Below, in pieces: positions 12,313-30,107 of a stretch of 64,000 nucleotides of DNA. The stretch's first letter is position 1. Each line of letters begins with the position of its first letter. The stretch is from positions 34,410,001 through 34,474,000 of the forward strand of contig CM097886.1 in NCBI GenBank assembly GCA_044892525.1. The letters are read 5' to 3'. The notes beneath the pieces were generated by a model, which had not been told where the DNA came from, did no database searches, and saw only the letters and a list, made by a program, of their open reading frames with translations. A program made the translations under genes and the position numbers. The stretch comes from Schmidtea polychroa. Its lineage: Eukaryota.

Positions 12313-12397
12313 TCTATAATTATATATACATATAGTTCTTATCGATACAGGTTCGATATTTTATTTACAATTATTTACATTTTAAGCTAGGTTTGGT

Positions 12398-12781
12398 TTA
12401 GGGTTCGGAAGAGTCGGCTTCGTGTCCGCTCTCCTCTCTATTCATTAGCCATTCCGACCAGTCTTCTATTTCCGTCTGTTCTGCTTCCTCCATCATTCTG
12501 TCTAGCTCGATTTCCTGTCTACGGCTATATTGGGTTATCCTCTCTATCTCTCTTTGCATTTGTTCGATTTTCAACCTCTGGTCTTCAATTATCTTCAAAT
12601 AACTAAATCCTCTATTCATACTCTCGATTAGGTTTCTGTGCATCGTCAATCCTTGTTCTTGCAAATTGGACACTAATTGTGCTAATACGGCACATTGTTG
12701 CTTCCATAATTCTTCAGTTACTGTATTGTGGTTCATTTCGTTATTTCCTTGATCCATTCTTAATTTATATACACTTTTCAA
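12398..12781 (-). CDS. Element accessory ORF, about 120-aa coiled-coil/acidic protein (likely ATG at 12757)
   Basis: Open frame MDQGNNEM..EQMQREIERITQ..; ORF-track start is a TTG. Confidence 0.6.
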   Translation of the reverse strand: MKSVYKLRMDQGNNEMNHNTVTEELWKQQCAVLAQLVSNLQEQGLTMHRNLIESMNRGFSYLKIIEDQRLKIEQMQREIERITQYSRRQEIELDRMMEEAEQTEIEDWSEWLMNREESGHEADSSEP

Positions 12782-12917
12782 CTCTTATTTAAATTTAATT
12801 TTATTTTATGATTCCCGTTATTGTATAATATTGATACCGCGCTTATATAAAGATATAGTACTGTTATATACATAAGATATACTTACTTTTTACAATTATA
12901 TACAGTCATATTCCTTT

Positions 12918-13712
12918 CTATATACGTGAGTTTGGAGGGCGCTGAGCGTTCCAGGCCTCCACCCACTGTTCTTGTTTGATATCACTTGGTCGTTTCACTC
13001 GATGTTGGAAATTTCTGATTCGGGTCATCTCTAGTTCTCCGCGATGTCGTTTATCTTTAATTATTTTTATTGTTCCCCCCGTTATGATTAGGAAGGCCCC
13101 TGTTATTATTATCCCACTGATCCACATCATCTGCTTCACGCTTATACTCTCTGGTTTTTCCTTGTTTGTTAATGTTACTATTGCTTCTGTACTTTTCTCG
13201 TTCCCTCTTTTGCCATTCCCTTTCATCATCTCTCGTATTCTTGCTATTTCCTCGTTCATACCCTCCTTTGCCATCTTTTGTATTTTTTCCATCTCTTCCT
13301 CCGAAACATAGTTGTCCTGAGCTTCCTCGCCGGTTTTCTTGTGCTTTCCTCCTTCGTCCTTTTCGTCGTGGTTTTTCCTTTTCTTTCCTCTTTTCCCCGG
13401 GTATCGTCGGCATTCTCTTTTTGATTCGTTCCTCCAGATACAAACCGTGTATTCTTTCGGCGGCTGCTGCTGCGTCACATATTGATGGCATCTCTCACCT
13501 GGTCCTAATCTTGAAATACAGACTTTGTGCTCTTTTCTAGGTTGGAGCTGCGTTATTATTACTTCACCACCTTTTCCTAGGTGTACCTCTTTTCCTTTAA
13601 CGTTCGTTATTCTCTTCCCGTCTCGATTTCGGTATGCTTCTTGTATTCTTACTTCTGTTATTGGTTCTGTGTCCTCATTTATCAGTACTAGTTTCTGATA
13701 CGCTCTAGACAT
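12918..13712 (-). CDS. Element accessory ORF, 264 aa, basic/charged with C-terminal TM segment
   Basis: ATG overlaps the polyprotein stop (ATGTCTAG). TM-like MMWISGIIITGAFLIITGGTIKII. Confidence 0.7.
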   Translation of the reverse strand: MSRAYQKLVLINEDTEPITEVRIQEAYRNRDGKRITNVKGKEVHLGKGGEVIITQLQPRKEHKVCISRLGPGERCHQYVTQQQPPKEYTVCIWRNESKRECRRYPGKRGKKRKNHDEKDEGGKHKKTGEEAQDNYVSEEEMEKIQKMAKEGMNEEIARIREMMKGNGKRGNEKSTEAIVTLTNKEKPESISVKQMMWISGIIITGAFLIITGGTIKIIKDKRHRGELEMTRIRNFQHRVKRPSDIKQEQWVEAWNAQRPPNSRI

Positions 13713-16700
13713 GCATCTTCCTAGTATGCACCTTTCCTTTAAGTCCCATTCTTCCTTTAAATCCCAACTGCTCTTGTGCTTGCTTTTTCTTTTCTTGTTT
13801 TAGTTCATCCTCTTTGCCATCTTGATTCTCCGCTTCTTTGGTTTCTTTTATCGTTCTCGTCCCTCCATGAGCTGTTACTAACTCTATCATGGTAAGCATA
13901 ATTATCATTAATATCATATTTGTCTCTATTTCTTTGTTAGTGAAAGGTAGGCATACCCTCTGTTTTCCATTATTCGGTTTTTCCTCCTCTTTGGTCTTGG
14001 TTCCCGGGCTGTTTCCCTCTCTTTTCGTATCCAACTCCTTGTTTTCCGGTTTATCCTCTTCCGGTTCTCTTTTCCCTTTATCCTCTTTTCGGCCTTTTCC
14101 GTCATTGTCATCGTGTTTATCTCCCCCGCTGTCGTTTAAAATGTCGTCCTCGACATTTATATCGTCCAATAATCTGCGATATGCTGTTAGCACTCTGTTT
14201 TTTGCTAATTTTGCTTCGAATTCAAATTCTTTTCTACCCGTTGCAGCATGTCTCTTTCTATTCCATTCTTTAACTAACTCTCTCAATTGAATACGACGAT
14301 GTTTCCCAATTCGTTGTTGCTCGCTCTTATTTTGCGTGAATTTGAGGTCTTCTCTGTTTAGTACTATTAAAATAATTTTTGGTGTCCCCCCTTTAGTTAA
14401 TGTATTCTTTACCATCGCGTTTTCTCCGTTTTCGTAGAATTCGTTTATATTTATCGCATATTTATTACTTTGTGGTATTCTCCATGTTACTAATAATTTC
14501 ATTGCTTCTAGATTTTTCCGTACCGTATTCCATTGGAATTGAGATGTGTTTTTGCACATATTTTCAATTTCTTCCTTTGTCGCATTTTTGCAAATAAATC
14601 TGATCATTTCCAAGTTTGGCTGTATGGTTGCCCAGTCCAATGTGGAGTTCCCTTCGTTTGATTTTTCGTCTAGTCTCGATCCTGATTGATGTAGGATGTG
14701 GAGTGTTTTTGGGTGTATTTTCGTTATAGCTGCATACATCATGGCGGTTTCGCCTTGTTCATTTTTCGTGTTGGTTTCCTCGCCCATCTCCCTAAGGATT
14801 CTCATGATCGTTATTGCTCTATTCTCTTTTGCAGATAGTATTGCTTGTTGTAGAGGTGTTCTGGAATCCTTTGTCGTCATCGCAAATGCTCGAGGCAAGA
14901 AGGTTTTGATTTTCTCGATATCTAAACCCGTGGTTTGATCTCTTGCGTATGTGTGTACGGCTTTTATTATTTTTGACAATATTATTTCGTCGGACAGCTC
15001 TAGCATTTCCTCGAAGAATACTTCTTTTGCTTTGCATATTATTGCCTCTTGATCTATACTCATTGATTTGGTTTCGATGACGTTGTTTGTGACCGTCGAC
15101 TTTGGTTCCCTTGATTTCCCATACCTTATTTTCGTTTTCTTTCCGTTTGGATTATTGATTCGTTCCTCTGCTGTAAGTATTTGGATAATATCCAGGTAAT
15201 TCTCGTGGAGGTTATTCATTGTGTCCATCATATATAACACACTTACCGTTTCCCAATATTTATTTCGTACTTGGTTAGTAAATTGGAATATTGATTTTTC
15301 GAATGTGTCGATTCGCTTTTTTGCTAACTGTTCATCTTTATGATTTGTGAATTTTATCCCTCGTTCTAGTAATTGATTCGGAATTTCGAATAAATGATGT
15401 CCTTTCATAGCTTCTCTCATCAGCGTGTTCTCTCCTCTCGTGAACGCTTCGTTTACGTTGATCATATAATCATTTTTAATTGGATTTCTCCATGTAATTA
15501 ATATTCCGGTAATTGTTGTCAGTTTTTCTTTGGTCGCTGTTAGTAATCCACCATACATGTTTCCGACTTCTTGATTGTCCTCATATGATAGTAACTCCAT
15601 CAACGATGTGAACGCTTCGGTACTTTTCCCTTCGATAGCATGATGTAGTGCGTTTTTCCGCTCGCGATCTTGTGTAGTTATTTTTGATCCAGTATCAAGT
15701 AATGCGGTTATGATGTCTTTTGTTTTGCCTCTGTTTGCTGCTATCATTAATGGTGTGTAACCTTGGGTATTTTCTTGTTCTGTTGATCGCTTGCAGTCGT
15801 GAAATGCTTCTATTGTTTCTAGTATTTGCTCGTTGTTACCTACTTTCATGAGTTTGTGTAATGGTGTGTCTCCGTAATGATCTGTTATTGTAAATAATAT
15901 TGGCCATTGGCTTTTGACTACTCGCAATAATGGGTGTGTTCTCTCTCTGTTTGCATAATTTTCGATCATCGTCAATAATCCTCCTAATATTTCGAAATCT
16001 AATCGATCTTTTGCCCATCCGGGTAATTTTATCTTTACCTCTCGTACGATTTTTTCGGCTTCCGATGGTTGTATGCCCAATCGTCCAGTGATCGGTTCTG
16101 CGAGTTGTTGCATCATGTTCATTCTGTAGGTTTGCGAACGTGTGGTTAATGTACGGCCTTCTGGATGACTGGTGGCTGTTTTCGGAATTGGTTTGCATCG
16201 TGCCACGTTTACGTATATTGGCCTGGTGAATGGATTATTTATCAATTTCACTCTAACGTTGGTTTCGCCTACAAATAGGATCTCATATGGCCCTTTTCCG
16301 TTCCGTTGTAATTTTCTTGTGGTTCCGGGAATTAATTCTGGGGTCTCGATCATCACCCAATCACCTGTTTGAAACGTATGTTGCTTCACGTTTTTCTTTC
16401 GATCGTGTAAATCTTTATAACTTTCCTGGTAGAACTTGATATTTAATCCCGCAGTTTCCCAAATTTCTTGCATTCTTTCCTTGAATTTCGTAACATAATC
16501 GTCGATCTCCATATACTGCGATATCGGTGGTTGGTATTCCAGGTCCATTGGCATGTTACATTCTCTTCCGTACATTAATTTGAATGGGCTCATTTTCGTT
16601 GATGCGTGAATCGACATTCTGTATGCCATAAGACATAGGTTTATATATTCGTCCCAATCTCGTTGGTGACGGTCGACGTAGTTTGATAACATTTGTATAA

Positions 16701-19700
16701 GTGTTCCATTAAATCTTTCCGTCATCCCATTGGTTTGAGGATGATACGGTGATGTTCTCAATTTTGCGATTTTGAAGTAATTTGTTACTTCGCTCATTAT
16801 CTCACTCATAAAATTAGTTCCCTGATCGGTTAAGATTTGTTTTGGTGTTCCATATCGGCAACATATTTCTTCTACCAAAATTTTTGCGATTGTTTTAGCT
16901 TTTTGGTCTGGCATCGCGAATGCTTCTGGAAATTTCGTGAGAAAGTCTGTAATCACTAAAATATAAACGTTTCCTCTATCCGATTCCGGTAATGGACCAA
17001 CTACGTCCATTGATATCATTGTCATTGGTTCTATTGGTACTGGCATTGGCGTTAAAGGTGCTTTCCATTTCGATCCAGTATTCTTCCTGGTCGCACAAGT
17101 TAGACAATTTTTTACCCATTCGGTTACATCTTCAGTTAACGTAGGCCAAAAATATTTCTGTTTCATTCTTGCTAACGTCTTTTTCGATGACATATGTCCT
17201 CCCAATCTCCCATCGTGATATTGCGTTAGTAACTCTTTTCGTCGGTTTTCCGGTATACACATTAATCGTTTTTCCCCATCCATTATCAGCAACCAATCTT
17301 TCTCTATAATATATCGGTGTCGGTGTTTATCCATATGTTCTTTTAATTTTTGGTCTTTCGCATATACATCCGTCTTTCCGGTTTTTACATAATCGATAAT
17401 TTGTTTTAATTCCGCGTCCTCTTGTTGGTCCTTTCGCAATTGACAGAAATCCAAATCTTCCGCTACTATTAAGCATATGCGTTGCATTTCTGAATCCACC
17501 AAATCTGGAAAAATAAATCTTGACATACAATCGGCGTTGGCATTTGCTCTTCCTGCTTTGAATTTTATAAATGGGGAGTATTCTTGCAATTGCATGGCCC
17601 ATCTCATCAGTCTACTGGACGCTTCTTTATGTTGCCCTAACCACACTAATGGTTGATGATCTGTGGTTATACATATCTCATGTCCCCATAACAAATATCG
17701 AAAATGTTTGATTGCCTGTATTATAGCCAATGCTTCTCGTTCTGTTACTGAATAGTTCTTCTCGTGCTTTTTGAATGTTCGACTGTAGTATCCAATTACT
17801 CTTTCTTTACCTTCGTCGTCTAATTGTCCCAGAATCGCGCCTGCCGCGTACCCGCTTGCATCCGTTGCCAATAGAAATGGCTTCTTGAAATCTGGGTGTA
17901 CCAGTATTGGTGCTTCGATTAGTTTGTCTCTCAGCGTTTCGAACGCCTGTTGTTGTTCTTTTTCCCAAATGAACGAAATGTCTTTCTTTACTAATTCCTG
18001 GATTGGTTTTGCAATTCCTGCATAATTTTTGATAAATTTGCGATAGTATCCGCATAATCCTAGAAATTCCTGAACTTGGGTGACAGTTTTCGGTGCTGGA
18101 CATGTTTTTATTTTCTCAATGTTTCTTGGATCTGGCTCCTTTCCTTTAGCTGACACTATGTGTCCCAGAAACGTGACTTTTTCCTTTGCCCAATCGCATT
18201 TTGAGGGTTTGAGCTTGAGTTTCCATTGTCTTAATCGAATAAATACATTTCGGATATCTTCCAGATGTTGTTCAAATGTCGCTGAATAGATTAGTAAATC
18301 ATCAATATATACCATACATTGTTTGATTCCGTGAGTGACAAAGTTCATACACCTTTGAAATGATGCTGGTGCGTTAGTCAGTCCGAATGGCATTTTCCTG
18401 AACTGATATAGATCTCGTCCCAACGTGAAGGCGGTCTTCTCTTTGTCCTCATCCTTGACTTTAATCTGCCAGTATCCACTTTTTAGGTCTAAAGAAGTAA
18501 AATATGCTGTCCCTTGCAACATGAGTAACATTTCATTAATGTCTGGCAATGGATAGGTATCTCTCTTGGTTACTGCGTTTAATTTTCGATAATCGATACA
18601 GAATCGTTGGGTGCCATCTTTCTTTTTCACCATGACCACTGGGAATTGCCAAGGTGAGCAACTCGGTTCGATTACTTTTGCGTCTAGCATCTTTTGTACT
18701 TCTGCTTCGGCTATTTCTTTTTGCATTTCTGCTAGCTTGTATGGTCTTAATGCAATTGGAGTTTCATCTATGAGGGGTATTGCATGTAGGGTAACATCGC
18801 ATGTACCCAAATCTAAATCTGAGATGGCGAATATATCTTTATATTCTACCAACAATCGGTGCAATTTTTTCTTTTCATCATTCGTCAACAACATACTATC
18901 TATTGTCCATAATTCATCATCTTTGATCATCTCGTTGGTCACTTTCGGTAATTCTATGTCCATCAATGGGGTCAATCTTCCCAATTTTTCGTTCTCGTAA
19001 ATGATTTTGTCTTCCTCTTCGAAATTCGTGATGTTGAGCGGTATCACTCCTTCTTGGTTTATTGTGATTATTTCTCTTGCGAGGGGTAATTCTCGTCGCT
19101 TTTCGAATGATTTGCTTGGTTCAAAGATAACTTCTCCTTCCATACCCGTATCCACCTTTATCTGACAAATCATCTGTGATTTTGCTGGTACCACAATTTT
19201 CTCTGGACATCTAATTATGGCATTCATTTTGCATATTCTGCCTGTTTTGTCTTTTAAACACATGGTTGTTAAATCGATCACCACTTCTTTTAATAATTCC
19301 GGCATCAGGTCCGTTCCGATTATGCATGGTACGCTAAGTTTTGGTATTACTGCCAAATACGTTTCAATTTCGTTGTCCTGGTATCTCAATGTAGTCCACC
19401 ATCTTCCGACCACGTCTACTGTTTCTTTACTACATGCTATGATGTGAATTGTTGTTGATTCGATATCTTTCCAGTGCTTACTGGGGATTTGATTAATCGC
19501 TATCACTGATACATTAGCTCCTGTGTCTATCATAGCATTGGTTTCTTTACCATTGATTTGAATCATGACTGTTACTGCTGGACCTCCAGGTAAACTCATC
19601 GCTGCTATTGTTCTTACGTCATCTGCTTGATCTACACTTTTGGTACGTCGTGTTGGCATATAATGCATACCGGGTTGACTCGGTAATTGCGGATACATGT

Positions 19701-22700
19701 TTTGTGTCATGGTCAAAGCTGCTTGCGGTCCCACGATATCGGGCGATATATAGCTTCCATTGGCGATCCAGGTATTTGTCTTTTCCTTTTCCCAATATGG
19801 TGCCGTTTCCACTGGTTTTTCGTTTGGGTTTCTGTTTGGATATAGACATTTATCGTTCCCGTTATCATCGTCGTCACTATCGCTGTTAGATGATTGGCTT
19901 CTAAATCGGTCCAAGAATTTTGGCTTATTCTTTTTCAATTGTCGTCTTGTTGCTTCGTCGTACATTACTTTCCGGAATCGTCTGCCTACTTCCTCGTCGG
20001 TTCCTTTAATCTTTGTTAGTATTTTGATCAATCGCTTTATCCGATGGATGTCTTTTGAGTGACCATGTAATACCATGGTTTTTGCTAAAAATGGTAAAAA
20101 GCCTACTATCATTTTCCAGTTGACTTTCTTTTCCCGCTTGTATATATCAAAACAAGCTAACATTTGTGTTAGTATTACTCTGACTATCTGAATTATGAGT
20201 ATGATCCCTAATATCCCGGCCATCATTTGTCCAAAAACTAAGAATCTTCCCCACATTGCTTTCATCATGTTTGACGTAGCTTGTTGAAAATGGTCTGGCG
20301 ATAATAGCAGTTCGTAATTCGGGCCTGATTGATAATTTGTTCCCCCAGTTATTGTAACCATATTTGACAAAATGGATTCTCGTCTGGCTGGGAAGAGTAC
20401 GTTAAGTCGTGCTGTTTCTAGATCTTCTGGGGAATACATTCCACCGTTTGACACGTCTATAGGTTTGAAATCCAGCTCTGTGGCGAGTTCTATTAATCCA
20501 AATTTCTTGGGCTCCTCGGATATGGTTTTTCCCGGTAACATCATCCATTTCCCATCGGGTCTTTCATACAAAGGTCCGTATGCATTAGAACAGTTAAAGA
20601 GATTTGGGTAGAAACCCACTGGATTCATAATTCTCGTGACTGGTTGGACGAATCGATTTTGTCCTTTATAACGGATTTCTAATTCATTTGCACATCTCTT
20701 TTCGGGTAGTATGGATTTTTCTGGCATTCGTGCATACGTCTTGGTACACTGGTATGTGTACATTACTTCTCCTACCATTCTACCAAAATGTCCGTCTGGT
20801 AGTGGGAGTGATGGCATCGTGTTATCTGGGTGCGTTATCGCAATAGCTAGCTTTGTTTTCAGTATTTCTTTATTCAATGAACAATCGTTTTGTATCAGAT
20901 CGTAATATACTTTTTGTAAGGTCGTTTGCCCGCGATGAAATAGAAAATCCATTTTATTATTTGCATATAAGTATAGTTTTACGTCCTCCGTTGCTATCTT
21001 TCCCACTGCTCTATCGATTATTTGTCTCGACATATAGATACCTGCGTAATTGGTTTTATATACTATACTGTCACATTTGGTGGTTTCTTTCTCTTTGATA
21101 AATCTCATACCTAGATCTGGATCGTCTGTGATTAATGCTGTTGGTGTCTTCTGCGTTGAAAGTCTCTTTTCTCTGGGAGATGGTGGCATTGGTTTTCCAT
21201 TTCGCATTCTCACTCTGTCGTTTCCATCCTCGTCGTTCTCGTTCTCATAAATTTCTCCTTTTACTTCATTGAACAAAGCACTTTTTAACAGTTGGAGTCG
21301 GCATTTTTGGGTATTAGCTTCATAGATTATAGTTGATACTCCTGTCCTGCATACGTTTTCTGTAGCTCTACATGCTGGGTTGGTCTTCATTTGATAATTA
21401 TTTGCGTCAAATTGCGCTTCGTATTCTTTTAATTCAACCGTATAAGACTCGATCACTACTACTCCCGATATTACCTCGCCTCGGATCGTATACGTACCTC
21501 CGTTACATGACCCATCTGATGATTTTACTTTTCCGGATACGTAAACACTTTCGGTTTTAATCATTCCAGTTTGTCCGTGAATCGTCACTCCGTTATGCAT
21601 TTTTAACGCTCCGGTTCTAAATAGCTCTTTACAGTCCTCTCGTTGTATTGATACGATTTCTTTATCCAGACCGGGTAGTATAAGAGTCGAATACGAATAT
21701 TGTCCACAGTAATATGCGAGTACCTTTTTTGATACTACGCATTCCCTTGCTTGCGTTCTGATGAAATCTGATTCTTGATATACATGGTAGGTAACTTTTG
21801 TTCTTACTATGTCTAATTTGTTGGGTGATGCTTGTCTGCATTCTTCTATGTCTCTCAATGAGTATTTATCCCTCATTATCATATTATCACAATCGTAGAT
21901 GGTAAAACCTGTTGCTCCACTTGTGCACAACATCCATATCATCATAGTCATCATTAACGAATTTATCGATGCTTTTCGGCTTGCTGGGTCTTTCATGGGT
22001 AGTTCCCATTCTAGTTCATTCAGCAACTTCTTCAATCTAACTTGCATCGACCTTTCTTGCTCATTTTTTCGTGGTGCTTGTATAAGTCTTTTCCATCCTC
22101 CGGCACGAATAATGTGTGGTTCAATAGTGTTTTCTATGACTGAAACTGTCATTTCCACGTGATTTGCAAACTGTTTATTTGGTATTTTCCTCGCAGCTAG
22201 TCCCATCAAATTATACATCAAATACGTGATTACCACTAGATGATGTTCGTCATCATTTGCATTTGTCGTGAGCTGTTCAATCACTCTCTTCGTTTCATCC
22301 CAATCCGTTTTGGTGGTTTTCGTTTTCTCTTTGATTAACTTTGGGATTGTCCCCGAAACGATGTGCCATAATTGTCTAGCTTCCGTACTGGCTACTTTCC
22401 GTTGCCACAAACGTCTAAGTTGTGGGTTTGTTATTATTAACATATCTTTGATCAATTCTCGTATCCATTTTTCTCCTCTTTCGATCGTTGGTTGGGCTTC
22501 CTTTAGATCCCATACTATTTTATCCAATTTTTCTAATCGAACTTGCCCTTGTTCTTGCTTTAATTGTTCCTTGGTTTTGAACTCAGACTTTTCTCCTTGT
22601 TTCTTAGGTCTTCCTTTTGCCCGTTTTTCCATCATCGTTCCGGCTTCTCTGGTATTTTCGTAATTCGGATTTCTTTCGTTATCCGTTCTGGGTAATGAGC

Positions 22701-25700
22701 TATCGTTATTTCTTAGCCACTCATTCCATTCATCTATTATTTTATCGGTTTGACCTTCTGATGTTACTTTCGTTGGTTCTCTTTGCTTCTGGAATTGTTC
22801 ATCCGTTTCGGTTTCCGTAGTGTTGTCGATGATTTCTTTGATGTTTAGTTTCGTTGGTTGTTGATAACTCGTTGATGGCTGGTTATTAGTCCATAGTTCA
22901 GCTCCTGTCGGCCATCTCACTAATAGCGGTGATCTTTCTCCTGGTTCATCATCGCTGTCTTCGAGGATAATCTCTTCGACTTCTTCAGTTTCATTGGATT
23001 TACTTGGTGCTTTGTTCGGACTTGGAGTACTCAAGCTGCCTTTTGTTGGTTTATTAATTTTGCTTTTCCTTTTCAACGGTTTTCCCAACGTTTCCGCCAT
23101 TGTTAACACATTCGTCTCTTCCAATCTCATGGGTGTTATTCCGACGTCTGCATTATCGTCTAGTGATTTTCCGAATAGTTGCAGATGGAATGGAGTTTCA
23201 TATGCTAATTTCTTTTTTAATTCTCTAATCTTTGTTGTTGGATGCACCTCTAGTTCCTTGATGCTCTTGTCCGGATACTTGATTCGGATGTGATACCTCT
23301 CCTGAGTGTCTTGTGCCCATTCCTGATTTCTCCATTTTCGAATAATTTGTTCTAGCTGTTCTGGATACAATTCATTATATTGCCGGTATTCCTCTATTGC
23401 CTTTGCCGTTCCTCTCAGATTGTGGATGTTCTCTGATGTCTTTAAGATGATGTTAGCCAACGCTACTACTTGGCGTTTTTGATTTTTCGCTCCCATTGCT
23501 AAGATATCGCCTAATTGTTTATATCTTTCTTTCTCTTCTCGTTCTCTTGCTTCCGTCGCTTCCTCGCCGTCCATATCAGCATATTCACGTTCCTTTTTCC
23601 TCATTGCATGAATATGTCTCGCTTCATTTTCGCTTTCTGATGTGACATCCGTCTCGCCTTCGTCATCTGATGTCTGTTCCCTTGCTTCCTCTTCATATTC
23701 TGGAGGTTCCTCTTCTTCTTCCTCCGATTCACTTTCTGTTTCACCAATGTCTGTTTCTACGAAGATTCCTTTCCGGATTTCCCATTCCTTATTTTCTGTA
23801 TTCCACACTCTTTCCCATGGGGTTCGTCTGCAGGATCTGGTACTTAGTTTTGTGATTTTTCCTTGTAATTCCTTTTCTTTTAACCATTGTTGGTGGATTT
23901 CGATTATTTCTGTAGATTTTTGATATAACGTTTTCATCCGGTCTCGTATTTCTTTTTGATATGTTACATCTCTTGTTCGAAATTCATCCATTGGTACTAT
24001 CCTGATTATCTGATGATTGTCCCACATACCCATTTCGCTTAACGAGGTGTCGTCTTCCGCTCGTAATATTATTTTATCGTACATCATGACTACATCATCT
24101 ACCATACCATCACCACTTTCGCTACGTACCTTTTCCGTTATCTCTTGGTTTATCTTTGATACCAAGTCATCCACTGTACTCTGATTGCTCATTTTTATTC
24201 GTCGTTTTTCTTCGTTCGGTAACCATATGGTTATTTCCAACCTCTGTGGCTGGGTTTCTTTTAACCTTCCATATTTGTGGATCAAATTTATGGTTCTCCA
24301 ATCACTCATTCGGAGCATTTCTGTATCTCGCAACCGGCTCATTAGTTCGTACATGGCTGGGGCTCGCCTGGTGATGAGTAAATCCCAGTTGTCTTCTACT
24401 TGTTCTTGAATTTGTTTGATCAGCTTATCCAGGTTTCGTCTCAGAGTACATTGTTTTATTTGTTCTAATTTCAATTTGATATTAAAATCATATTCTGCCT
24501 TGGCATCTTTAGCCCAATCGTAAAGGTTGGCTGGTTGTTTTTCTTTATGCAACTTCAGTATTTGCGTTTCTCCTGGCCATATTAGTGCATCTACTAAGTG
24601 CATATCTGGTTTGATCTGTTCTCCTTGGTATTGATACAGATATTCTTTCTTTCTCGAACTTCCCAAATGTTCTCGTATCCAATCGAAAAGTTCGTCGGTG
24701 ACTGTACTTTTGATCCACATTCTTTCAAGTCCTCTGCTCGTTCCGATTTTTATTACATACCGCGTGGTATCGGCCTGCTTCATTTTTTCCATATACTTTT
24801 TTATAATTGATTTTTCCTCGTTTGGTATTAGATCTTTCTCGTTTCTTTCCAATTTCATCACTTTTTGTACGAATCGTCTGAATGGTATTATATCGATGAA
24901 CTCTTGATTCCTCACTACTACTGGGAGTATTTCAGCTACTTGTTTTATCGCTTCCTCCCTCTCTTTTCTCAACTTTATTTCGATATCCTCGTCTTCACTT
25001 TCGCTGGTTATCTCGCTTTCGCCTTCTTCCTCTTTGATTTCCCCTTTTGGAGGTTCGCTTATTTCATTTAGCTGTAGTATTTCTCCACCCAAACTACTTA
25101 CATAGTCTTCTTCTTCGTCTGACGATGCTACATCTTTTGTCCTTTTCATCATATTGATTTGCAAATTTCTTATCCTTGGTACTCTCTTTAGTTTCTTTCT
25201 TTCGAATATCGTTGTTTCTTCTGATTCTAATTCTTGTAGCATTTGGTGGTTTAGTTGACTGGTTTGTTCCTTGCTCTTGTTATTTTCGTCTTCTGTCTCA
25301 GTTTTCGCTTTATTATGTTCTTTTTCGATTTTATCTTTTATCTTTTTCCAGAATATTTTCTGAATTCTCTGGTTTCCTTTTAAAATCGTGGTTGAATTCT
25401 CTGTTTTCATTTCCGTTGTTGTTTCTTTTACCTTTTCTGGTTCCGTCCTGGGTACTACCCTTGGGTTTTTCCCGTAATTGTAGCAATACTGGCTCTTCAT
25501 GTCTTTTACTAACTTCATCATATTTATTCGCAATGGTTGTTCTTGTCGTTGTTGGTTGCGTTCTTGTTTTATCCTCTCTTCCTCGGCCTGTAGTCTTTGC
25601 CATTCTTGTACATGTTGATGCACTTCATAATTGTTGAGATTTTCGGTACTCCTCATCATACGTATGTTCTGGGTTTGTTGTGGTGCTGGTTCTTGTCTTG

Positions 25701-26757
25701 GTCTCATCATTTGTTGCATCATCTGTTTCATCTGCGAGATTTCCTGCATAACGTTCATTTGTTTTCCTTCGCTAGGGTTACTTTGTCGTTGCGGATTCGC
25801 CATATAATTATTATTTCGCTGTGGTGGTCGTTGTTGTTGGCCCCTTTCTCGGCAATCTCTGGAGATGTGACCTGGCTGACCACAGTTAAAACAACCTCTC
25901 AATTGGCATACATTTTCGGTATGTCCACGCCGTCCGCAACAATTACAATTTGAATTTCTATAACAATCTCTGTCCCAGTGTCCTGGTTTACCGCATGTTC
26001 GGCACTGCTTGTTATCGTTCATATTTCGTCGATTACTAAAATTGTTCTCATTATTCAGGTTGTTACGATTACCATTATTCCCATTTGATCGTCCTTGTGG
26101 TGGTTTGAAAATTTGATGCGCTCCTGGTATAAATTGATTCATTTTTGGTTCCTGGTTGTTATTATCTCCATTATCCGTTTTTACTTTGGCTGTCGCTATC
26201 CTCCCATCCTCTTGCATGATGTTCATTTGTGCTGGGAGGTGGAGTTCGCACCTCGTAGCCCAATCTATGGCCTCCTCTAACGTTGTACACATCTGACAGC
26301 CTACAGATGCTCTTACTTCTTCTCGGCGTAATCCCTCTATGAAATAGCCGATCAAATTTTCTTCTGGCAATTTCCCATTCATTGCTTTCTTTGCCAATCT
26401 CCGCAATTCGCTGGCATATAACGTGATGGATTCATTTGCTCTTTGTTTCCTATTTGCTAGTTCGCCGAGTGCTTGATTTATTGGTTTGCTAGCTCCGAAA
26501 GTTTTCTTCAGGAATGTTTTGATATCGTCCCATTTATCTAATTTCGTATTTCTTTCTTTAGCCTCTAAATACACTTCTAATGCGCTATCGCACAAAAACA
26601 ACGGCATCCTTTTACTAACTGCTTCGGATGTCCATCCGCACACATCGATATAAACTTCGAAGTTGGTTATGAACGTTGCTAACTTGTTTGCATTTCCGTT
26701 GAACGGTTCTCCTCTGAACTTCTCTTTATACTCGTCGGTTTTTACGACATTCGTCAT
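13705..26757 (-). CDS. 4,350-aa Gag-(Ubl)3-Bcl2-like-Env-PR-RT-RH-INT-ankyrin polyprotein
   Basis: Single uninterrupted frame. CCHC knuckles 25852-26004; protease DTG at 19527-19519; RT YIDD at about 18309-18298; RNase H TDASG / TDHQPL; integrase HHCC plus MDVVGP / TDQGTNF / TERFN; ankyrin TPLH/TPLM motifs. Confidence 0.96.
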   Translation of the reverse strand: MTNVVKTDEYKEKFRGEPFNGNANKLATFITNFEVYIDVCGWTSEAVSKRMPLFLCDSALEVYLEAKERNTKLDKWDDIKTFLKKTFGASKPINQALGELANRKQRANESITLYASELRRLAKKAMNGKLPEENLIGYFIEGLRREEVRASVGCQMCTTLEEAIDWATRCELHLPAQMNIMQEDGRIATAKVKTDNGDNNNQEPKMNQFIPGAHQIFKPPQGRSNGNNGNRNNLNNENNFSNRRNMNDNKQCRTCGKPGHWDRDCYRNSNCNCCGRRGHTENVCQLRGCFNCGQPGHISRDCRERGQQQRPPQRNNNYMANPQRQSNPSEGKQMNVMQEISQMKQMMQQMMRPRQEPAPQQTQNIRMMRSTENLNNYEVHQHVQEWQRLQAEEERIKQERNQQRQEQPLRINMMKLVKDMKSQYCYNYGKNPRVVPRTEPEKVKETTTEMKTENSTTILKGNQRIQKIFWKKIKDKIEKEHNKAKTETEDENNKSKEQTSQLNHQMLQELESEETTIFERKKLKRVPRIRNLQINMMKRTKDVASSDEEEDYVSSLGGEILQLNEISEPPKGEIKEEEGESEITSESEDEDIEIKLRKEREEAIKQVAEILPVVVRNQEFIDIIPFRRFVQKVMKLERNEKDLIPNEEKSIIKKYMEKMKQADTTRYVIKIGTSRGLERMWIKSTVTDELFDWIREHLGSSRKKEYLYQYQGEQIKPDMHLVDALIWPGETQILKLHKEKQPANLYDWAKDAKAEYDFNIKLKLEQIKQCTLRRNLDKLIKQIQEQVEDNWDLLITRRAPAMYELMSRLRDTEMLRMSDWRTINLIHKYGRLKETQPQRLEITIWLPNEEKRRIKMSNQSTVDDLVSKINQEITEKVRSESGDGMVDDVVMMYDKIILRAEDDTSLSEMGMWDNHQIIRIVPMDEFRTRDVTYQKEIRDRMKTLYQKSTEIIEIHQQWLKEKELQGKITKLSTRSCRRTPWERVWNTENKEWEIRKGIFVETDIGETESESEEEEEEPPEYEEEAREQTSDDEGETDVTSESENEARHIHAMRKKEREYADMDGEEATEAREREEKERYKQLGDILAMGAKNQKRQVVALANIILKTSENIHNLRGTAKAIEEYRQYNELYPEQLEQIIRKWRNQEWAQDTQERYHIRIKYPDKSIKELEVHPTTKIRELKKKLAYETPFHLQLFGKSLDDNADVGITPMRLEETNVLTMAETLGKPLKRKSKINKPTKGSLSTPSPNKAPSKSNETEEVEEIILEDSDDEPGERSPLLVRWPTGAELWTNNQPSTSYQQPTKLNIKEIIDNTTETETDEQFQKQREPTKVTSEGQTDKIIDEWNEWLRNNDSSLPRTDNERNPNYENTREAGTMMEKRAKGRPKKQGEKSEFKTKEQLKQEQGQVRLEKLDKIVWDLKEAQPTIERGEKWIRELIKDMLIITNPQLRRLWQRKVASTEARQLWHIVSGTIPKLIKEKTKTTKTDWDETKRVIEQLTTNANDDEHHLVVITYLMYNLMGLAARKIPNKQFANHVEMTVSVIENTIEPHIIRAGGWKRLIQAPRKNEQERSMQVRLKKLLNELEWELPMKDPASRKASINSLMMTMMIWMLCTSGATGFTIYDCDNMIMRDKYSLRDIEECRQASPNKLDIVRTKVTYHVYQESDFIRTQARECVVSKKVLAYYCGQYSYSTLILPGLDKEIVSIQREDCKELFRTGALKMHNGVTIHGQTGMIKTESVYVSGKVKSSDGSCNGGTYTIRGEVISGVVVIESYTVELKEYEAQFDANNYQMKTNPACRATENVCRTGVSTIIYEANTQKCRLQLLKSALFNEVKGEIYENENDEDGNDRVRMRNGKPMPPSPREKRLSTQKTPTALITDDPDLGMRFIKEKETTKCDSIVYKTNYAGIYMSRQIIDRAVGKIATEDVKLYLYANNKMDFLFHRGQTTLQKVYYDLIQNDCSLNKEILKTKLAIAITHPDNTMPSLPLPDGHFGRMVGEVMYTYQCTKTYARMPEKSILPEKRCANELEIRYKGQNRFVQPVTRIMNPVGFYPNLFNCSNAYGPLYERPDGKWMMLPGKTISEEPKKFGLIELATELDFKPIDVSNGGMYSPEDLETARLNVLFPARRESILSNMVTITGGTNYQSGPNYELLLSPDHFQQATSNMMKAMWGRFLVFGQMMAGILGIILIIQIVRVILTQMLACFDIYKREKKVNWKMIVGFLPFLAKTMVLHGHSKDIHRIKRLIKILTKIKGTDEEVGRRFRKVMYDEATRRQLKKNKPKFLDRFRSQSSNSDSDDDDNGNDKCLYPNRNPNEKPVETAPYWEKEKTNTWIANGSYISPDIVGPQAALTMTQNMYPQLPSQPGMHYMPTRRTKSVDQADDVRTIAAMSLPGGPAVTVMIQINGKETNAMIDTGANVSVIAINQIPSKHWKDIESTTIHIIACSKETVDVVGRWWTTLRYQDNEIETYLAVIPKLSVPCIIGTDLMPELLKEVVIDLTTMCLKDKTGRICKMNAIIRCPEKIVVPAKSQMICQIKVDTGMEGEVIFEPSKSFEKRRELPLAREIITINQEGVIPLNITNFEEEDKIIYENEKLGRLTPLMDIELPKVTNEMIKDDELWTIDSMLLTNDEKKKLHRLLVEYKDIFAISDLDLGTCDVTLHAIPLIDETPIALRPYKLAEMQKEIAEAEVQKMLDAKVIEPSCSPWQFPVVMVKKKDGTQRFCIDYRKLNAVTKRDTYPLPDINEMLLMLQGTAYFTSLDLKSGYWQIKVKDEDKEKTAFTLGRDLYQFRKMPFGLTNAPASFQRCMNFVTHGIKQCMVYIDDLLIYSATFEQHLEDIRNVFIRLRQWKLKLKPSKCDWAKEKVTFLGHIVSAKGKEPDPRNIEKIKTCPAPKTVTQVQEFLGLCGYYRKFIKNYAGIAKPIQELVKKDISFIWEKEQQQAFETLRDKLIEAPILVHPDFKKPFLLATDASGYAAGAILGQLDDEGKERVIGYYSRTFKKHEKNYSVTEREALAIIQAIKHFRYLLWGHEICITTDHQPLVWLGQHKEASSRLMRWAMQLQEYSPFIKFKAGRANANADCMSRFIFPDLVDSEMQRICLIVAEDLDFCQLRKDQQEDAELKQIIDYVKTGKTDVYAKDQKLKEHMDKHRHRYIIEKDWLLIMDGEKRLMCIPENRRKELLTQYHDGRLGGHMSSKKTLARMKQKYFWPTLTEDVTEWVKNCLTCATRKNTGSKWKAPLTPMPVPIEPMTMISMDVVGPLPESDRGNVYILVITDFLTKFPEAFAMPDQKAKTIAKILVEEICCRYGTPKQILTDQGTNFMSEIMSEVTNYFKIAKLRTSPYHPQTNGMTERFNGTLIQMLSNYVDRHQRDWDEYINLCLMAYRMSIHASTKMSPFKLMYGRECNMPMDLEYQPPISQYMEIDDYVTKFKERMQEIWETAGLNIKFYQESYKDLHDRKKNVKQHTFQTGDWVMIETPELIPGTTRKLQRNGKGPYEILFVGETNVRVKLINNPFTRPIYVNVARCKPIPKTATSHPEGRTLTTRSQTYRMNMMQQLAEPITGRLGIQPSEAEKIVREVKIKLPGWAKDRLDFEILGGLLTMIENYANRERTHPLLRVVKSQWPILFTITDHYGDTPLHKLMKVGNNEQILETIEAFHDCKRSTEQENTQGYTPLMIAANRGKTKDIITALLDTGSKITTQDRERKNALHHAIEGKSTEAFTSLMELLSYEDNQEVGNMYGGLLTATKEKLTTITGILITWRNPIKNDYMINVNEAFTRGENTLMREAMKGHHLFEIPNQLLERGIKFTNHKDEQLAKKRIDTFEKSIFQFTNQVRNKYWETVSVLYMMDTMNNLHENYLDIIQILTAEERINNPNGKKTKIRYGKSREPKSTVTNNVIETKSMSIDQEAIICKAKEVFFEEMLELSDEIILSKIIKAVHTYARDQTTGLDIEKIKTFLPRAFAMTTKDSRTPLQQAILSAKENRAITIMRILREMGEETNTKNEQGETAMMYAAITKIHPKTLHILHQSGSRLDEKSNEGNSTLDWATIQPNLEMIRFICKNATKEEIENMCKNTSQFQWNTVRKNLEAMKLLVTWRIPQSNKYAININEFYENGENAMVKNTLTKGGTPKIILIVLNREDLKFTQNKSEQQRIGKHRRIQLRELVKEWNRKRHAATGRKEFEFEAKLAKNRVLTAYRRLLDDINVEDDILNDSGGDKHDDNDGKGRKEDKGKREPEEDKPENKELDTKREGNSPGTKTKEEEKPNNGKQRVCLPFTNKEIETNMILMIIMLTMIELVTAHGGTRTIKETKEAENQDGKEDELKQEKKKQAQEQLGFKGRMGLKGKVHTRKMHV
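14580..15880 (-). other. Ankyrin-repeat domains (two blocks) at the polyprotein C-terminus
   Basis: GDTPLHKLM, GYTPLMIAA, KNALHHAI; SRTPLQQAI, GETAMMYAA, GNSTLDWAT. Confidence 0.88.
16190..17240 (-). other. Integrase domain (HHCC, DDE core, GPY/F-like)
   Basis: YHDGRLGGH..CLTC; SMDVVGPL; ILTDQGTNF; PQTNGMTERFN; GKGPYEI. Confidence 0.95.
17500..18800 (-). other. Reverse transcriptase and RNase H domains
   Basis: SPWQFPVVMVKKKDG..FCIDYRKLN; LDLKSGYWQI; MPFGLTNAPASFQR; YIDD; LATDASGYAAGAILGQ; EREALAI. Confidence 0.97.
19230..19580 (-). other. Aspartic protease domain
   Basis: NAMIDTGANVSVI and a downstream IIGTDL motif. Confidence 0.93.
20060..21960 (-). other. Envelope glycoprotein domain (chuvirus/Jingchuvirales-type) with signal peptide and TM anchor
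   Basis: Signal-like LMMTMMIWMLCTSGATG then FTIYDC..YSLRDIEEC; YCGQYS; CNGGTY; NNKMDFL; NDCSLNKEIL; GEVMYTYQC; CANELEI..FVQPVTRI; TM FLVFGQMMAGILGIILIIQIVRVIL. Confidence 0.82.
22078..22521 (-). other. Bcl-2-like domain (BH2-like motif)
   Basis: IEPHIIRAGGWKRL aligns by eye to Bcl-xL BH2 LEPWIQENGGWDTF, with Bcl-2-like helix spacing upstream. BH1 NWGR is not conserved. Confidence 0.55.
23098..24762 (-). other. Three ubiquitin-like domains (about 24547-24762, 23992-24243, 23098-23298)
   Basis: Beta-grasp pattern, clearest in RYHIRIKYPDKSIKELEVHPTTKIRELKKKL..LQLFGKSLDDN. Confidence 0.6.
25852..26757 (-). other. Gag capsid-like region and three CCHC zinc knuckles
   Basis: FNG..FITNFE..W..; QRANESITLYASELRRLA; CRTCGKPGHWDRDC, CNCCGRRGHTENVC, CFNCGQPGHISRDC. 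Confidence 0.92.
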
Positions 26758-28071
26758 GATTGGTGTTCTAGATTCGTCTGTTTCTTTTAAATTGTCTAAC
26801 GATGTGACTAAACTTTGGGCTGATAATTCCTCGGTTGATGTTGCTAAACTGTTAGTTATGTCGGACAGACTTTCTCTGCTTCGAGATCGACTAGGGGTGT
26901 ATCCGAGATTTTCTTGGTCAAATATAGGTACTTGATTAGTTCTTCTTGATCCTTGTGATATTCCTCTTTGATGTTTAATAGATCGTCCTCTTTTGAGTTG
27001 TTGTAATTCGTCTCCTGAAAATAATACGTCTCCTGGCTTACTTGAAGATCTAAGATTGGGTTTATCCGTGATTCCTTTCTTACGCTTCTTGGTAATTAGC
27101 GGCTACTGAATCGGACGAGTTCGGATCTGATTGCGTTTCTAGTCCTTGGCAGATGGCTGCTAATACTATGAGGTTGAATATATCGGTGATTCGTTCGAAG
27201 TTGGAGATGTCGCTATCTGTATCTTCTTCCGTTCTGGAGTCTTCCGGTTGCTGTGTCTCTCGGTGCGGGTTCTGAATGGGTTTATTCTTGGTCGGTTGCT
27301 GGTTACTTCGAATTCCTTTTGTGCAGGTTCTGGATTGGCTTGATTGGCTGGCTTGAGTTGATATCTAAAATGAAAAAATGATCTCGTGTTGCATCTGCTT
27401 ACACGACTTCATCATTCTTTCTGCAAAATTCAAACACAGACACCTTTTAGGTTCTGTTTATGCTTCCCCTATTTTTTATGCAATTACTTCCGCGGGTTAT
27501 AATCTCCCATCAGCCCGAATTTTTCGTCGATTTTAAATTATCTATATGGGGTAGTAACAATTATCTATCGAGTCGCAATAATTATCTATTTTTTATCACT
27601 TATAATATGAATAGGTCGTTGTCGGTCACTACTTATTACCCCCCTTTCATTTTCCTAATCCCTTTGCGCTGTGGTCGCTATTTTACTTTTCATATTTACT
27701 ATTATTCGCTCGGTTCTACTCTGGAACCAATAAAATGCATTTTCCCGATTTAACCAAAAACAAAATATTTCGTGGGGTTTCTCTACTTCACTGGGATCCC
27801 TTTAATTAGTTAGTTACTTTCCTCTTTACTCATTATCATCATTTCACCTATTCTTTGTTTTCCATTATCTCTTTAATTCATTTCCTTCTTCCCCTTCCTT
27901 TTTCATTATAATCCTATCCTCCTTTCCACGAGCTCGTTTATTTCTTCTCTAAACTCAAATTTTCGTAATTACATTCAATTTGCTTCTAGCTAGCTTTAAT
28001 ATTCCATTTCACTATTAATTTACATATTATCTCATTGTAGCTTGACTGCTATCTCTCGCTTTTCTAGGCCT

Positions 28072-28257
28072 TTACGACTGGCTGGCACTATTCAACAGCT
28101 CAATCTTCTTCCTTCTGACCGGTTGGACTATTCAACAACTCGATCTTACGACTGGCTGGCACTATTCAACAGCTCAATCTTCTTCCTTCTGACCGGTTGG
28201 ACTATTCAACAACTCGATCTTACGACTGGCTGGCACTATTCAACAGCTCAATCTTCT
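28072..28257. repeat. Tandem repeat, 74-bp unit x about 2.5, in the element 5' internal region
   Basis: TTACGACTGGCTGGCAC.. recurs at 28072, 28146 and 28220; each unit holds two related CTATTCAACA-based subunits. Confidence 0.95.
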
Positions 28258-28812
28258 AATATTCCCCACTCTGCATGCTTCTACTTCTCTTTTCCTCTTT
28301 TACCCTGAATTATTATTTTCTCTGTCTCTACTTTTAATTTGTCGACTTGATCTTTACCGCTTGAGAGTGTTTCCCCTTTCCCCCCTTGCTCAAAACGCAC
28401 GACGATCGCGATGATCCATTTCCACATTGGCATGGTGATCAGTCATGTCGTAAAAACTTCTCATCATATGCGATGGTACCCCGCCCTACGCTCCTCACTT
28501 GGGTTGATCGGTTACCCCCTCCCAATGGGTTGCTTTGATGATAGGACGTACCGCCCGAAGGTGGCTCATTTTGTACTCTTATATCCTATATTGGGACTAA
28601 TTCCACGTTAAATTTATTTTTCTCCATTTGATCTCACAAAAAAAAAATATAATTAACCGAGATAAAATATTCAATTCACAACACAACTTTTATTAATCAT
28701 GAAACTAAGACTAAACATTAATGCTACTTTACACTTAAAATTACATACATTCATCTTTAACCGTCATTATTGATCCGATACACATACACATTAATACATC
28801 TTTTTAGTCCTT

Positions 28813-29298
28813 TTAATCACCGTAATAAACCATATGGGTTTCTTTTATCTCATGTTTGCATATGGTACATCGTTTCAGGTCTTGTGCGCATTCTTCACAA
28901 TGACTGAGGTGTCCACAAGGCAAGAACAGTACGCGAATAGGACGAAGTTTACAAGCAAGGCAAGTTCGTAATAGGGTCAGTTTTTCGTGTATTTTTCGCT
29001 CGATTGTATCTGATATGGTACTTAATGGATCTTTTATACGTTGATAATCAAGATTTAATGTTGGGTGGTTCAATCTCTCTTGATACCATTGATACACGGT
29101 TTCAGGGTTTATCTTCCCCTCTGGGTGACTTAGTCCTGCGGCTAATAACATGTGGTTGGGGACGACTGGTGTTTGCCCGATTGCTTGGAGTAGTATGATG
29201 TTAATTCTTTCTCTCTTTTGTGTCAGCGTTTTAAGGGAGTCATCCTCGATGTTTACGAAGTTGCTTAGTTGTTGTATCTGGTCCACGAATTCCGTCAT
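28813..29298 (-). CDS. 161-aa protein with C-terminal IAP/MDM2-type RING finger, element-borne, upstream of gag
   Basis: CLACKLRPIRVLFLPCGHLSHCEECAQDLKRCTICKHEI at the C-terminus; no BIR seen. TTTTTTTTAG|ACATG start context; AATAAA plus GT-rich tract near 28690. Confidence 0.85.
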   Translation of the reverse strand: MTEFVDQIQQLSNFVNIEDDSLKTLTQKRERINIILLQAIGQTPVVPNHMLLAAGLSHPEGKINPETVYQWYQERLNHPTLNLDYQRIKDPLSTISDTIERKIHEKLTLLRTCLACKLRPIRVLFLPCGHLSHCEECAQDLKRCTICKHEIKETHMVYYGD

Positions 29299-30107
29299 GT
29301 CTAAAAAAAATGTTTTAGTCTTACATAACTAATTAGTGGTTGTTTCATCAAACCCTTTCCTTTTAAATCGTTATAATTTATTTTATTTTTATCTTATTTC
29401 CCCCTTATTAAATTTACTTTAGTTATACATTTAATTTTATCATAATTTCATAATAAGACTCGATAAGCATTAGACAATTTGCGCTCGTCAATCCATTGAC
29501 ATCGATCCTCTCGGTGAGTTCACATTGCCCCCAAAAATCATGCTGGGGTAGTGCTCGATTGACCTCAACTCATTTACGCACCTGTCTAGGAGATGAGTGT
29601 CCATTCATTTACGCTAAGTGTGCTTACGTCAATCCGGAGCAAGACCCCGCACAACTTGTATTCCAACATAGCACCCGTGAATTACTCCACGTTGGAAATG
29701 TGCTATGCCGGCGAGACACCAGTAAGCAGGTGAGCCCCTACCTTAGGACTACTCCTTACTGAGGCCTCGACTTCCTTTTTCTGACGGCCGATGGAAGGGC
29801 TTACGTCTGATCACTCCACCATTTCCTTCCCCACCTGACACCGAGTTGTATACAGATTGTCTAAGGCTTTTCGAACTAAAGTTTGCGCTTGGGTTGTAAA
29901 AACTACTCTGCACCTTTATAATGGCTAATCAAACAAAACTAACAATAAGAAATGACGAAAATTCCTTTATTCTACTATCATAGTGCGTTATACAGTTAAA
30001 ACTACAGGACTAATATAAATCAAGGGAAGACGGTTTACGAGAACATATAAGTCAGAATCGTTCAATTTACTAAACATGATCGATGTAGTTGCATTGGATC
30101 GAGATCT

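What the first reader, a model, noticed from the sequence alone, without database searches (positions are those of the whole stretch)
22078..22521. Bcl-2-like domain inside a retroelement polyprotein
WDETKRVIEQL..HLVVITYLMYNL..IEPHIIRAGGWKRL parallels the Bcl-xL alpha4-BH1-alpha6-BH2 spacing, with a good BH2 and a degenerate BH1, as in divergent viral Bcl-2 proteins. The following Env signal sequence could remain as its C-terminal membrane anchor after signal-peptidase cleavage (inference).
Basis: inference. Interest (0 to 1): 0.82.

Follow-up and report, generated by a model that had tools for sequence, protein, structure and literature searches.

The report
Bcl-2-fold cargo in giant retroelement
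A giant virus-like jumping gene carries a much-diverged copy of the cell-death regulator Bcl-2 just ahead of its envelope protein; this cargo is already noted in print for planarian 'Burro' elements, and here it lacks the residues that Bcl-2 uses to grip death-promoting partners, so it likely does a different job.

Summary
The stretch lies in the 4,465-codon frame of an intact-ended 29.5-kb Gypsy element (gag, cargo, env, pol, ankyrin) with at least 150 close copies. Alone it scores below Pfam's Bcl-2 cut-off (E 0.03). Four further element families in the genome carry the same domain at the same place. A profile made only from element sequences finds only Bcl-2-family chains in the PDB, and a model folded from that alignment matches Bcl-2 folds (best Z 13.4, 136 residues). 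It is not new: a BCL2-like motif just before env is published for planarian Burro elements (PMC6431247), and this scan found it before on other DNA of this genome. Added here: one apparent capture shared by five families; strong purifying selection, though no stronger than on the flanks; and loss of the BH1 W-G-R in 31 of 31 rows, with Asp or Glu at the Gly position in 30. The same change abolishes Bax binding in Bcl-2. The tail-anchor idea is plausible and untested. Most likely it is a membrane-tethered host-modulating scaffold rather than a classical BH3 sink.

The parts
3936..33447 (-). Whole Gypsy-type LTR element, 29,512 bp, Burro-like layout
   Evidence: LTR pair and 4-bp target duplication CCTT
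29541..33447 (-). 5' LTR, 3,907 bp
   Evidence: 99.95% identical to the 3' LTR, 2 mismatches
3936..7842 (-). 3' LTR, 3,907 bp
13705..27102 (-). Polyprotein frame, 4,465 codons stop to stop (P0001)
25849..26604 (-). Gag capsid domain and zinc knuckles (aa 167-418)
   Evidence: Pfam Retrotrans_gag E 2e-10, zf-CCHC E 1.9e-7
23185..23289 (-). Possible ubiquitin-like module (aa 1272-1306), weak
   Evidence: Pfam ubiquitin E 0.8 only; a Ubi2/SUMO-like motif is published before BCL-2 in Burro
22600..22623 (-). AT-hook-like basic motif just before the domain (aa 1494-1501); label from recall
   Evidence: Only G-R-P in the polyprotein; same place in family B, absent in C, D, E
22066..22482 (-). Bcl-2-fold domain (aa 1541-1679)
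22240..22251 (-). BH1-equivalent positions, D-D-E-H in place of N-W-G-R (aa 1618-1621)
   Evidence: register; counts
22084..22125 (-). BH2-equivalent; G-G-W kept, first Trp replaced by His (aa 1660-1673)
21967..22065 (-). Spacer between domain and signal (aa 1680-1712)
   Evidence: sequence; nearly no amino-acid change between sub-lineages
21904..21966 (-). Internal signal-like hydrophobic stretch before Env (aa 1713-1733); candidate tail anchor, inferred
   Evidence: hydropathy and conserved position in five families
20137..21903 (-). Env fusion glycoprotein with transmembrane helix at aa 2293-2311
   Evidence: Pfam Monjiviricetes_fusion E 5.7e-70; hydropathy
16738..19569 (-). Protease, reverse transcriptase, RNase H, integrase (aa 2512-3455)
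14596..15834 (-). Ankyrin repeats after integrase
   Evidence: Pfam Ank_2 E 1.3e-16
10924..12360 (-). Accessory TRAF-like ORF (RING to MATH), 478 codons
   Evidence: Pfam TRAF-mep_MATH E 2.5e-26, zf-C3HC4 E 2.5e-4
28813..29328 (-). Accessory RING ORF upstream of gag, 171 codons
   Evidence: Pfam zf-C3HC4_3 E 4.4e-12

Best explanation
The stretch is a Bcl-2-homologous domain, predicted to keep the Bcl-2 helical fold, that sits between the Gag-side cargo and the envelope protein of a Burro-type retroelement polyprotein and likely serves as a membrane-tethered scaffold for modulating host proteins rather than as a classical BH3 sink. Steps: (1) shown: homology, position and sharing by five element families; (2) predicted: the fold; (3) inferred: an ancestor of these families captured a host Bcl-2 gene once; (4) inferred: the hydrophobic stretch after the domain threads Env into the ER, signal peptidase cuts after it, and the domain stays on the cytosolic face held by that stretch; (5) inferred: the element's protease frees it from upstream cargo; (6) inferred: because W-G-R of BH1 is gone and the Gly position is acidic, it binds something other than Bax/Bak BH3 helices, as poxvirus A52 and B14 do, together with the element's TRAF, RING and ankyrin cargo. 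Odds by step: homology and fold about 0.97, tail anchor about 0.6, non-BH3 role about 0.5.
For: Element-only profiles rank only Bcl-2-family chains in the 60 rows shown (best E 0.0037; 0.00064). Profile against eight non-retroelement Bcl-2 frames of the genome: probability 95.5, E 1.5e-8. 29 of 31 aligned rows match Pfam Bcl-2 at E<=0.1, best 4.5e-7. Model from the element-only alignment, pLDDT 61, pTM 0.61: rows 1-34 of 48,161 chains are all Bcl-2 folds, best Bfl-1 Z 13.4, rmsd 3.0, 136 aligned; first unrelated row Z 6.4; 36 of 36 listed Foldseek rows are Bcl-2 family. The ten element rows form one side of a branch, 99/99. BH1: W 0 of 31, G 0 of 31, R 0 of 31; D or E at the Gly position in 30 of 31. 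W144A, G145E, R146A and W188A each abolish Bax binding of Bcl-2 (PMC6825947 Table 1). Bcl-2 folds without BH3 binding exist in poxviruses (PMC2494871 abstract). dN/dS 0.01-0.03 over the domain against six diverged copies.
Against: Viral Bcl-2 proteins without BH motifs still bind BH3 helices, and M11L does so without the Asp-Arg salt bridge (PMC3847314). The model is closer to BH3-binding proteins (Z 12-13) than to A52 (9.3) or B14 (6.2). Groove shape was not measured and the model is middling (41 of 163 residues under pLDDT 50); no Foldseek row reaches E 0.001. Selection is as strong on the upstream linker (0.03-0.06) and Env (0.02-0.04), so it shows that the polyprotein is kept, not that this domain has its own role. 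The anchor is weak in this family. The tree has long branches that may join falsely. No partner is identified, and TRAF cargo was not looked for in the other four families.
Confidence: 0.45

Rival explanations
1. It is a divergent pro-survival mimic like myxoma M11L or vaccinia F1L: it binds BH3 helices of host Bax/Bak-type proteins through hydrophobic contacts alone and keeps the expressing cell alive.
For: Best structural matches are BH3-binding proteins (Bfl-1, A179L, KsBcl-2, CNP058, BHRF1). BH motifs and the salt bridge are dispensable in some viral members. Burro1 is reported to protect stem cells from apoptosis through its IAP part (PMC13465017 citing Lee et al. 2026). The genome holds a Bak/Bax-like gene with a BH3-like helix (label from recall of the motif).
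Against: Acidic residue at the BH1 Gly position in 30 of 31 rows and no W or R, changes that abolish Bax binding in Bcl-2. An Env signal would place it at the ER rather than on mitochondria (inference).
Confidence: 0.35
2. The fold has become a structural part of the particle: a membrane-proximal spacer that ties the Gag side of the polyprotein to the Env-bearing membrane, in the manner of a matrix protein.
For: Fixed position directly before the Env signal in five families whose other cargo differs. The spacer and signal are as constrained as the domain.
Against: Gag lies about 1,100 residues upstream, with repeated candidate protease sites between (pattern chosen after looking). GAG-ENV-POL elements of other phyla are described without mention of Bcl-2 in the main text (PMC13524379, 0 occurrences of 'bcl').
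Confidence: 0.15
3. It is a chance helical resemblance or a dead remnant.
For: Sub-threshold Pfam score; the single-sequence model (pLDDT 47) found no Bcl-2 chain among 50 rows; no relatives in the large protein sets.
Against: Held-out profile, PDB profile hits, alignment-based model and dN/dS. 140 of 150 scored copies have no stop in the region (counted by hand).
Confidence: 0.03

Closest known systems
Burro / GYPSM1 giant Gypsy-like elements of planarians (Jurka 2007 and Grohme et al. 2018, both only as described in PMC6431247 section 7)
   Same: About 30 kb, one giant ORF, gag, ubiquitin-like motif, BCL2-like motif, in-frame env like mononegavirus fusion proteins, pol, ankyrin; TRAF/MATH cargo, in a separate accessory ORF as in the Dugesia tigrina element.
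   Different: No BIR domain was found by Pfam in the frames scanned. The TRAF ORF lies downstream of the polyprotein here, upstream in the D. tigrina element. Sequence identity to Burro1-4 could not be tested. The paper gives a motif only: no fold, no BH1 analysis, no function.
Pro-survival Bcl-2 / Bcl-xL / Bfl-1 (Pfam PF00452)
   Same: Helical bundle (Z 12-13.4), register of helices 4-8, G-G-W of BH2 in 31 of 31 rows, hydrophobic C-terminal stretch.
   Different: BH1 W-G-R absent, first BH2 Trp absent in this family, 11-14% identity in the structural matches, embedded in a polyprotein, 45-73 residues from G-G-W to the Env start.
Motif-less viral BH3 binders (myxoma M11L, vaccinia F1L)
   Same: Bcl-2 fold without clear BH motifs (M11L Z 10.0, F1L Z 6.9; PMC3847314).
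   Different: BH3 binding not shown here; carried by a retroelement; not a stand-alone gene.
Poxvirus A52 and B14 (Bcl-2 fold, NF-kB inhibitors without BH3 groove; PMC2494871)
   Same: Bcl-2 scaffold with loss of canonical BH3-binding features (A52 Z 9.3, B14 Z 6.2).
   Different: Groove occlusion not measured here; independent origin; these are analogues, not relatives shown by sequence.
GAG-ENV-POL HSV/gB-type errantiviruses of Platyhelminthes, Nematoda, Bryozoa (PMC13524379)
   Same: Order gag-env-pol with a class III-type Env.
   Different: The main text does not mention Bcl-2 cargo; supplements not read.

Membership tests
Bcl-2 fold family | Helical bundle with Bcl-2 topology | tested here: met
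   Predicted model; rows 1-34 all Bcl-2 folds, best Z 13.4, rmsd 3.0 over 136; 36 of 36 Foldseek rows, E 3.8e-3 or weaker
Bcl-2 fold family | Sequence homology to Bcl-2 proteins | tested here: met
   Element-only profile against PDB E 6.4e-4; profile-profile E 1.5e-8; held-out HMM E 1.5e-9
Pfam PF00452 Bcl-2 | Score at or above 31.4 bits | tested here: not met
   15.2 bits for the window domain; some copies of sister family B pass, e.g. 32.2 bits
Canonical pro-survival Bcl-2 proteins | BH1 N-W-G-R | tested here: not met
   D-D-E-H in 8 of 8 rows of this family; W, G, R in 0 of 31 rows
Canonical pro-survival Bcl-2 proteins | BH2 W-I-x-x-x-G-G-W | tested here: not met
   G-G-W kept in 31 of 31; first Trp is His in this family, Trp in 22 of 23 other rows
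Canonical pro-survival Bcl-2 proteins | Binds BH3 helices and blocks apoptosis | not testable with these tools
   Needs a binding or cell assay
Canonical pro-survival Bcl-2 proteins | C-terminal membrane anchor | tested here: inconclusive
   Hydrophobic stretch at aa 1713-1733, 19-residue mean 1.27; 1.96-2.43 in the four sister families; cleavage and retention untested
A52/B14-type poxvirus modulators (works-like only) | No BH3 groove | not tested
Burro elements | About 30 kb with long LTRs | tested here: met
   29,512 bp, LTRs 3,907 bp
Burro elements | Single ORF gag - BCL2-like - env - pol - ankyrin | tested here: met
Burro elements | MATH/TRAF cargo | tested here: met
   Accessory ORF 10924-12360, E 2.5e-26
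Burro elements | BIR (IAP) domain as in Burro1 | tested here: inconclusive
   No BIR hit in the 11 frames scanned; a RING ORF lies upstream of gag; spliced or short frames not scanned
Burro elements | Sequence kinship with published Burro1-4 | not testable with these tools
   No published Burro sequence was returned by any search

The most novel reading that the evidence does not exclude
A retroelement has turned a captured Bcl-2 into a non-apoptotic signalling modulator, in parallel with poxvirus A52 and B14, and uses the left-over Env signal peptide as its tail anchor, so that one hydrophobic helix both routes Env and tethers a host-manipulating protein to the ER.
Probability: 0.3. Interest if true: 0.6.

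Novelty: new member of a known kind. Interest (0 to 1): 0.3.

Why it matters
The presence of the domain is old news. It matters modestly because Burro1 is reported to aid planarian stem cells through another captured death regulator, and the Bcl-2-like module has, as far as my searches reach, no tested function. The shared loss of the BH1 residues gives a sharp, cheap test of whether a retroelement reuses the Bcl-2 fold as a death blocker or, like poxviruses, for something else.

Tried and rejected
Single-sequence fold: pLDDT 47, no Bcl-2 chain among the 50 rows; uninformative. Searches of the large protein sets found no relative, so all depth came from the window's own genome. The protein atlas did not answer. 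Complex prediction of the domain with a 36-residue BH3-like segment of a host Bak/Bax-like gene gave no verdict (scores 0.01 and 0.00; alignments not used; controls not folded); it is not used either way. Expression: no holder on record as RNA was listed; contigs of three runs only guessed to be RNA and one of unknown kind were laid and cannot show transcription. Viral structure library: no row at E 0.001, best 0.12, top named rows mostly viral Bcl-2 homologues. Donor gene: the tree places the element clade near one host gene (L042) and a Polinton-borne copy only weakly (73/85); no donor is claimed; four of its 21 rows were single exons. Ribosomal L17 and antitermination Q matches were rejected: weak, dependent on the boundaries, not supported by the fold. 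Grohme et al. 2018 and Lee et al. 2026 are not held.

Full report
Setting. The finding lies on the minus strand in a 4,465-codon frame, 13705-27102. Two LTRs of 3,907 bp that differ at two bases (3936-7842, 29541-33447) and a 4-bp target duplication bound a young 29,512-bp element. Pfam reads the frame as Gag and zinc knuckles, a Monjiviricetes-type fusion glycoprotein, protease, reverse transcriptase, RNase H, integrase and ankyrin repeats; a TRAF-like ORF and a RING ORF lie beside it. A search of the own genome scored 150 of 929 candidates, all 93-100% identical over the region.

The observation. The quoted motifs are there. Alone the evidence is thin: Pfam Bcl-2 E 0.033, 15.2 bits against a cut-off of 31.4; no PDB sequence hit; no relative in three searches of large protein sets; a single-sequence model of pLDDT 47 that found no Bcl-2 chain.

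Sister families settle it. Searches of the own genome with Pfam Bcl-2, the Env family and one sister domain (150 of 909, 68 of 2,580 and 150 of 1,505 candidates scored) led to four more gag-env-pol families, here B to E. Each has a domain ending in G-G-W 45 to 73 residues before the Env start. I aligned 31 chosen copies (8 A, 8 B, 5 C, 5 D, 5 E; full-length frames only, shorter broken ones left out). No host Bcl-2 was included. A profile of these rows, and of an earlier 10-row set, ranks only Bcl-2-family chains in the 60 PDB rows shown (best E 6.4e-4 and 3.7e-3). 29 of 31 rows match Pfam Bcl-2 at E 0.1 or better. An HMM from B to E alone finds the window polyprotein at aa 1545-1676, E 1.5e-9, and nowhere else below E 0.1; 33.2 bits against at most 12.5 for shuffles. 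Against eight non-retroelement Bcl-2 frames of the genome the profile-profile probability is 95.5.

Fold. AlphaFold2 on the 31-row alignment gave pLDDT 61 and pTM 0.61, with eight helices, the first poorly predicted. Against 48,161 chains the first 34 rows are all Bcl-2 folds: Bfl-1 Z 13.4, rmsd 3.0 over 136 residues, then A179L, KsBcl-2, CNP058, BHRF1 and Bcl-xL; the first unrelated chain has Z 6.4. The tool warns that helical bundles can reach Z 13 by arrangement alone, so the unbroken run of one family counts for more than the top score. Foldseek lists 36 rows, all Bcl-2 family, none at E 0.001. The domain is aa 1541-1679.

What is kept and lost. In the register of the Bcl-xL and Bcl-2 alignments, N-W-G-R of BH1 reads D-D-E-H in A, mostly N-R-D-K in B, D-R-D-V in C, D-K-E-V in D and N-K-D/E-V in E. 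W, G and R occur in 0 of 31 rows, and the Gly position is Asp or Glu in 30 of 31. G-G-W of BH2 is kept in 31 of 31; its first Trp is kept in 22 of 23 rows of B to E but is His in A. In Bcl-2, W144A, G145A, G145E, R146A and W188A each abolish Bax binding (PMC6825947 Table 1, a compilation citing PMID 8183370; passages read), and the BH1 Arg pairs with the BH3 Asp (PMC6078858, passage). Against over-reading this: M11L, N1L and F1L lack BH motifs, and M11L binds Bak BH3 without the salt bridge (PMC3847314, passages). A52 and B14 keep the fold, lack the groove and inhibit NF-kB instead (PMC2494871, abstract).

Selection and origin. Against six diverged copies of family A, silent sites are near saturation and dN/dS over the domain is 0.01-0.03; the upstream linker gives 0.03-0.06 and Env 0.02-0.04 (10 of 37 copies printed pairwise). 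Pooled over all 37 copies, shared variants give 0.08, 0.11 and 0.05. The domain is kept as protein, but no more than its neighbours. In a 21-row tree the ten element rows form one side of a branch (99/99), which fits one capture; branches are long, the tree is unrooted and the donor is not resolved.

Tail anchor. In all five families a hydrophobic stretch precedes the Env start. Gag upstream and Pol downstream of the Env transmembrane helix (aa 2293-2311) must both be cytosolic, so this stretch most simply acts as an internal signal whose cleavage leaves it on the end of the Bcl-2 domain, as with capsid anchors of flavivirus polyproteins (recalled). This is inference. Family A has the weakest stretch (19-residue mean 1.27), which suits a signal better than a lasting anchor, and further trimming is possible.

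What is known. PMC6431247 (section 7 read whole) describes planarian Burro elements with a BCL2-like motif, credited to Grohme et al. 2018, between a ubiquitin-like motif and an in-frame env, and calls for experiments. PMC13465017 (passages) reports that Lee et al. 2026 showed an anti-apoptotic role for the IAP part of Burro1. Neither primary paper is held, so they or their supplements may already treat this domain. PMC13524379 (passages; supplements not read) describes GAG-ENV-POL elements in Platyhelminthes with no mention of Bcl-2 in the main text. Searches (listings only) showed no paper on the function or BH1 state of the Burro domain. Earlier notes of this scan report the same domain on other DNA of this genome; they gave me two paper leads and are not counted as support.

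Verdict. The domain is real, predicted to have the Bcl-2 fold, and is a further member of a published kind. It fails the tests for a canonical pro-survival Bcl-2 (BH1, first BH2 Trp, Pfam cut-off). I favour a membrane-tethered, non-BH3 host modulator (0.45) over an M11L-like death blocker (0.35) and a structural tether (0.15). Interest 0.3.

Noticed in passing
L046-L060, L067-L069, L087, L090: Two dispersed multi-copy Bcl-2-like genes (one intronless, one apparently two-exon) lie beside protein-primed DNA polymerase, integrase and A32-like ATPase frames, so they are likely Polinton cargo. They keep W at BH1 and one is 44% identical to host gene L042. Bcl2 homologues in such elements are mentioned in PMC8502044 and in earlier notes of this scan.
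   Followed up: partly
L064, L079, L082, L095: Four further gag-env-pol families (longest common frames about 3,053, 3,334, 3,419 and 3,437 codons) carry the same domain before Env; 14-23% identical to the window's domain.
   Followed up: yes
window 12918-13799 and 13705-27102 (-): This copy's polyprotein frame is 4,465 codons, whereas about 59 of 150 scored copies have 4,732 (counted by hand); an overlapping 293-codon frame follows, so this copy appears broken near the end of the polyprotein.
   Followed up: no
P0001 aa 293, 449, 480, 526, 649, 1164, 3661: A short Met-rich motif recurs seven times, several at domain borders (after capsid, after the zinc knuckles, after integrase); candidate sites for the element's protease. 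Shuffles give 0.7 on average, but the pattern was chosen after looking, and it was not found in four sister-family frames.
   Followed up: partly
window 22600-22623 (-); L064 frame aa 707-714: AT-hook-like basic motif just before the Bcl-2 domain in families A and B only.
   Followed up: partly
P0001 aa 1519-1595 against L107, L108: In two close copies the N-terminal half of the domain shows more amino-acid than silent changes (5.5 against 0.5; 7 against 1), while the C-terminal half shows the reverse; counts are small and silent divergence is patchy, as recombination would give.
   Followed up: no
L031-L037: Seven near-identical Bcl-2-like frames with intact N-W-G-R cluster on contig C4.
   Followed up: no
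window 4503-5321 and 30108-30926 (-): A 272-codon frame inside each LTR, no Pfam match.
   Followed up: no
window 8116-8769, 8797-9345, 9674-10780, 12398-12784 (-): Further accessory frames, mostly coiled-coil-like; one has signal-like and transmembrane-like stretches; no firm Pfam match for the three scanned.
   Followed up: no
window 28072-28293: 74-bp tandem repeat, about 2.5 copies, between the RING ORF and gag.
   Followed up: no
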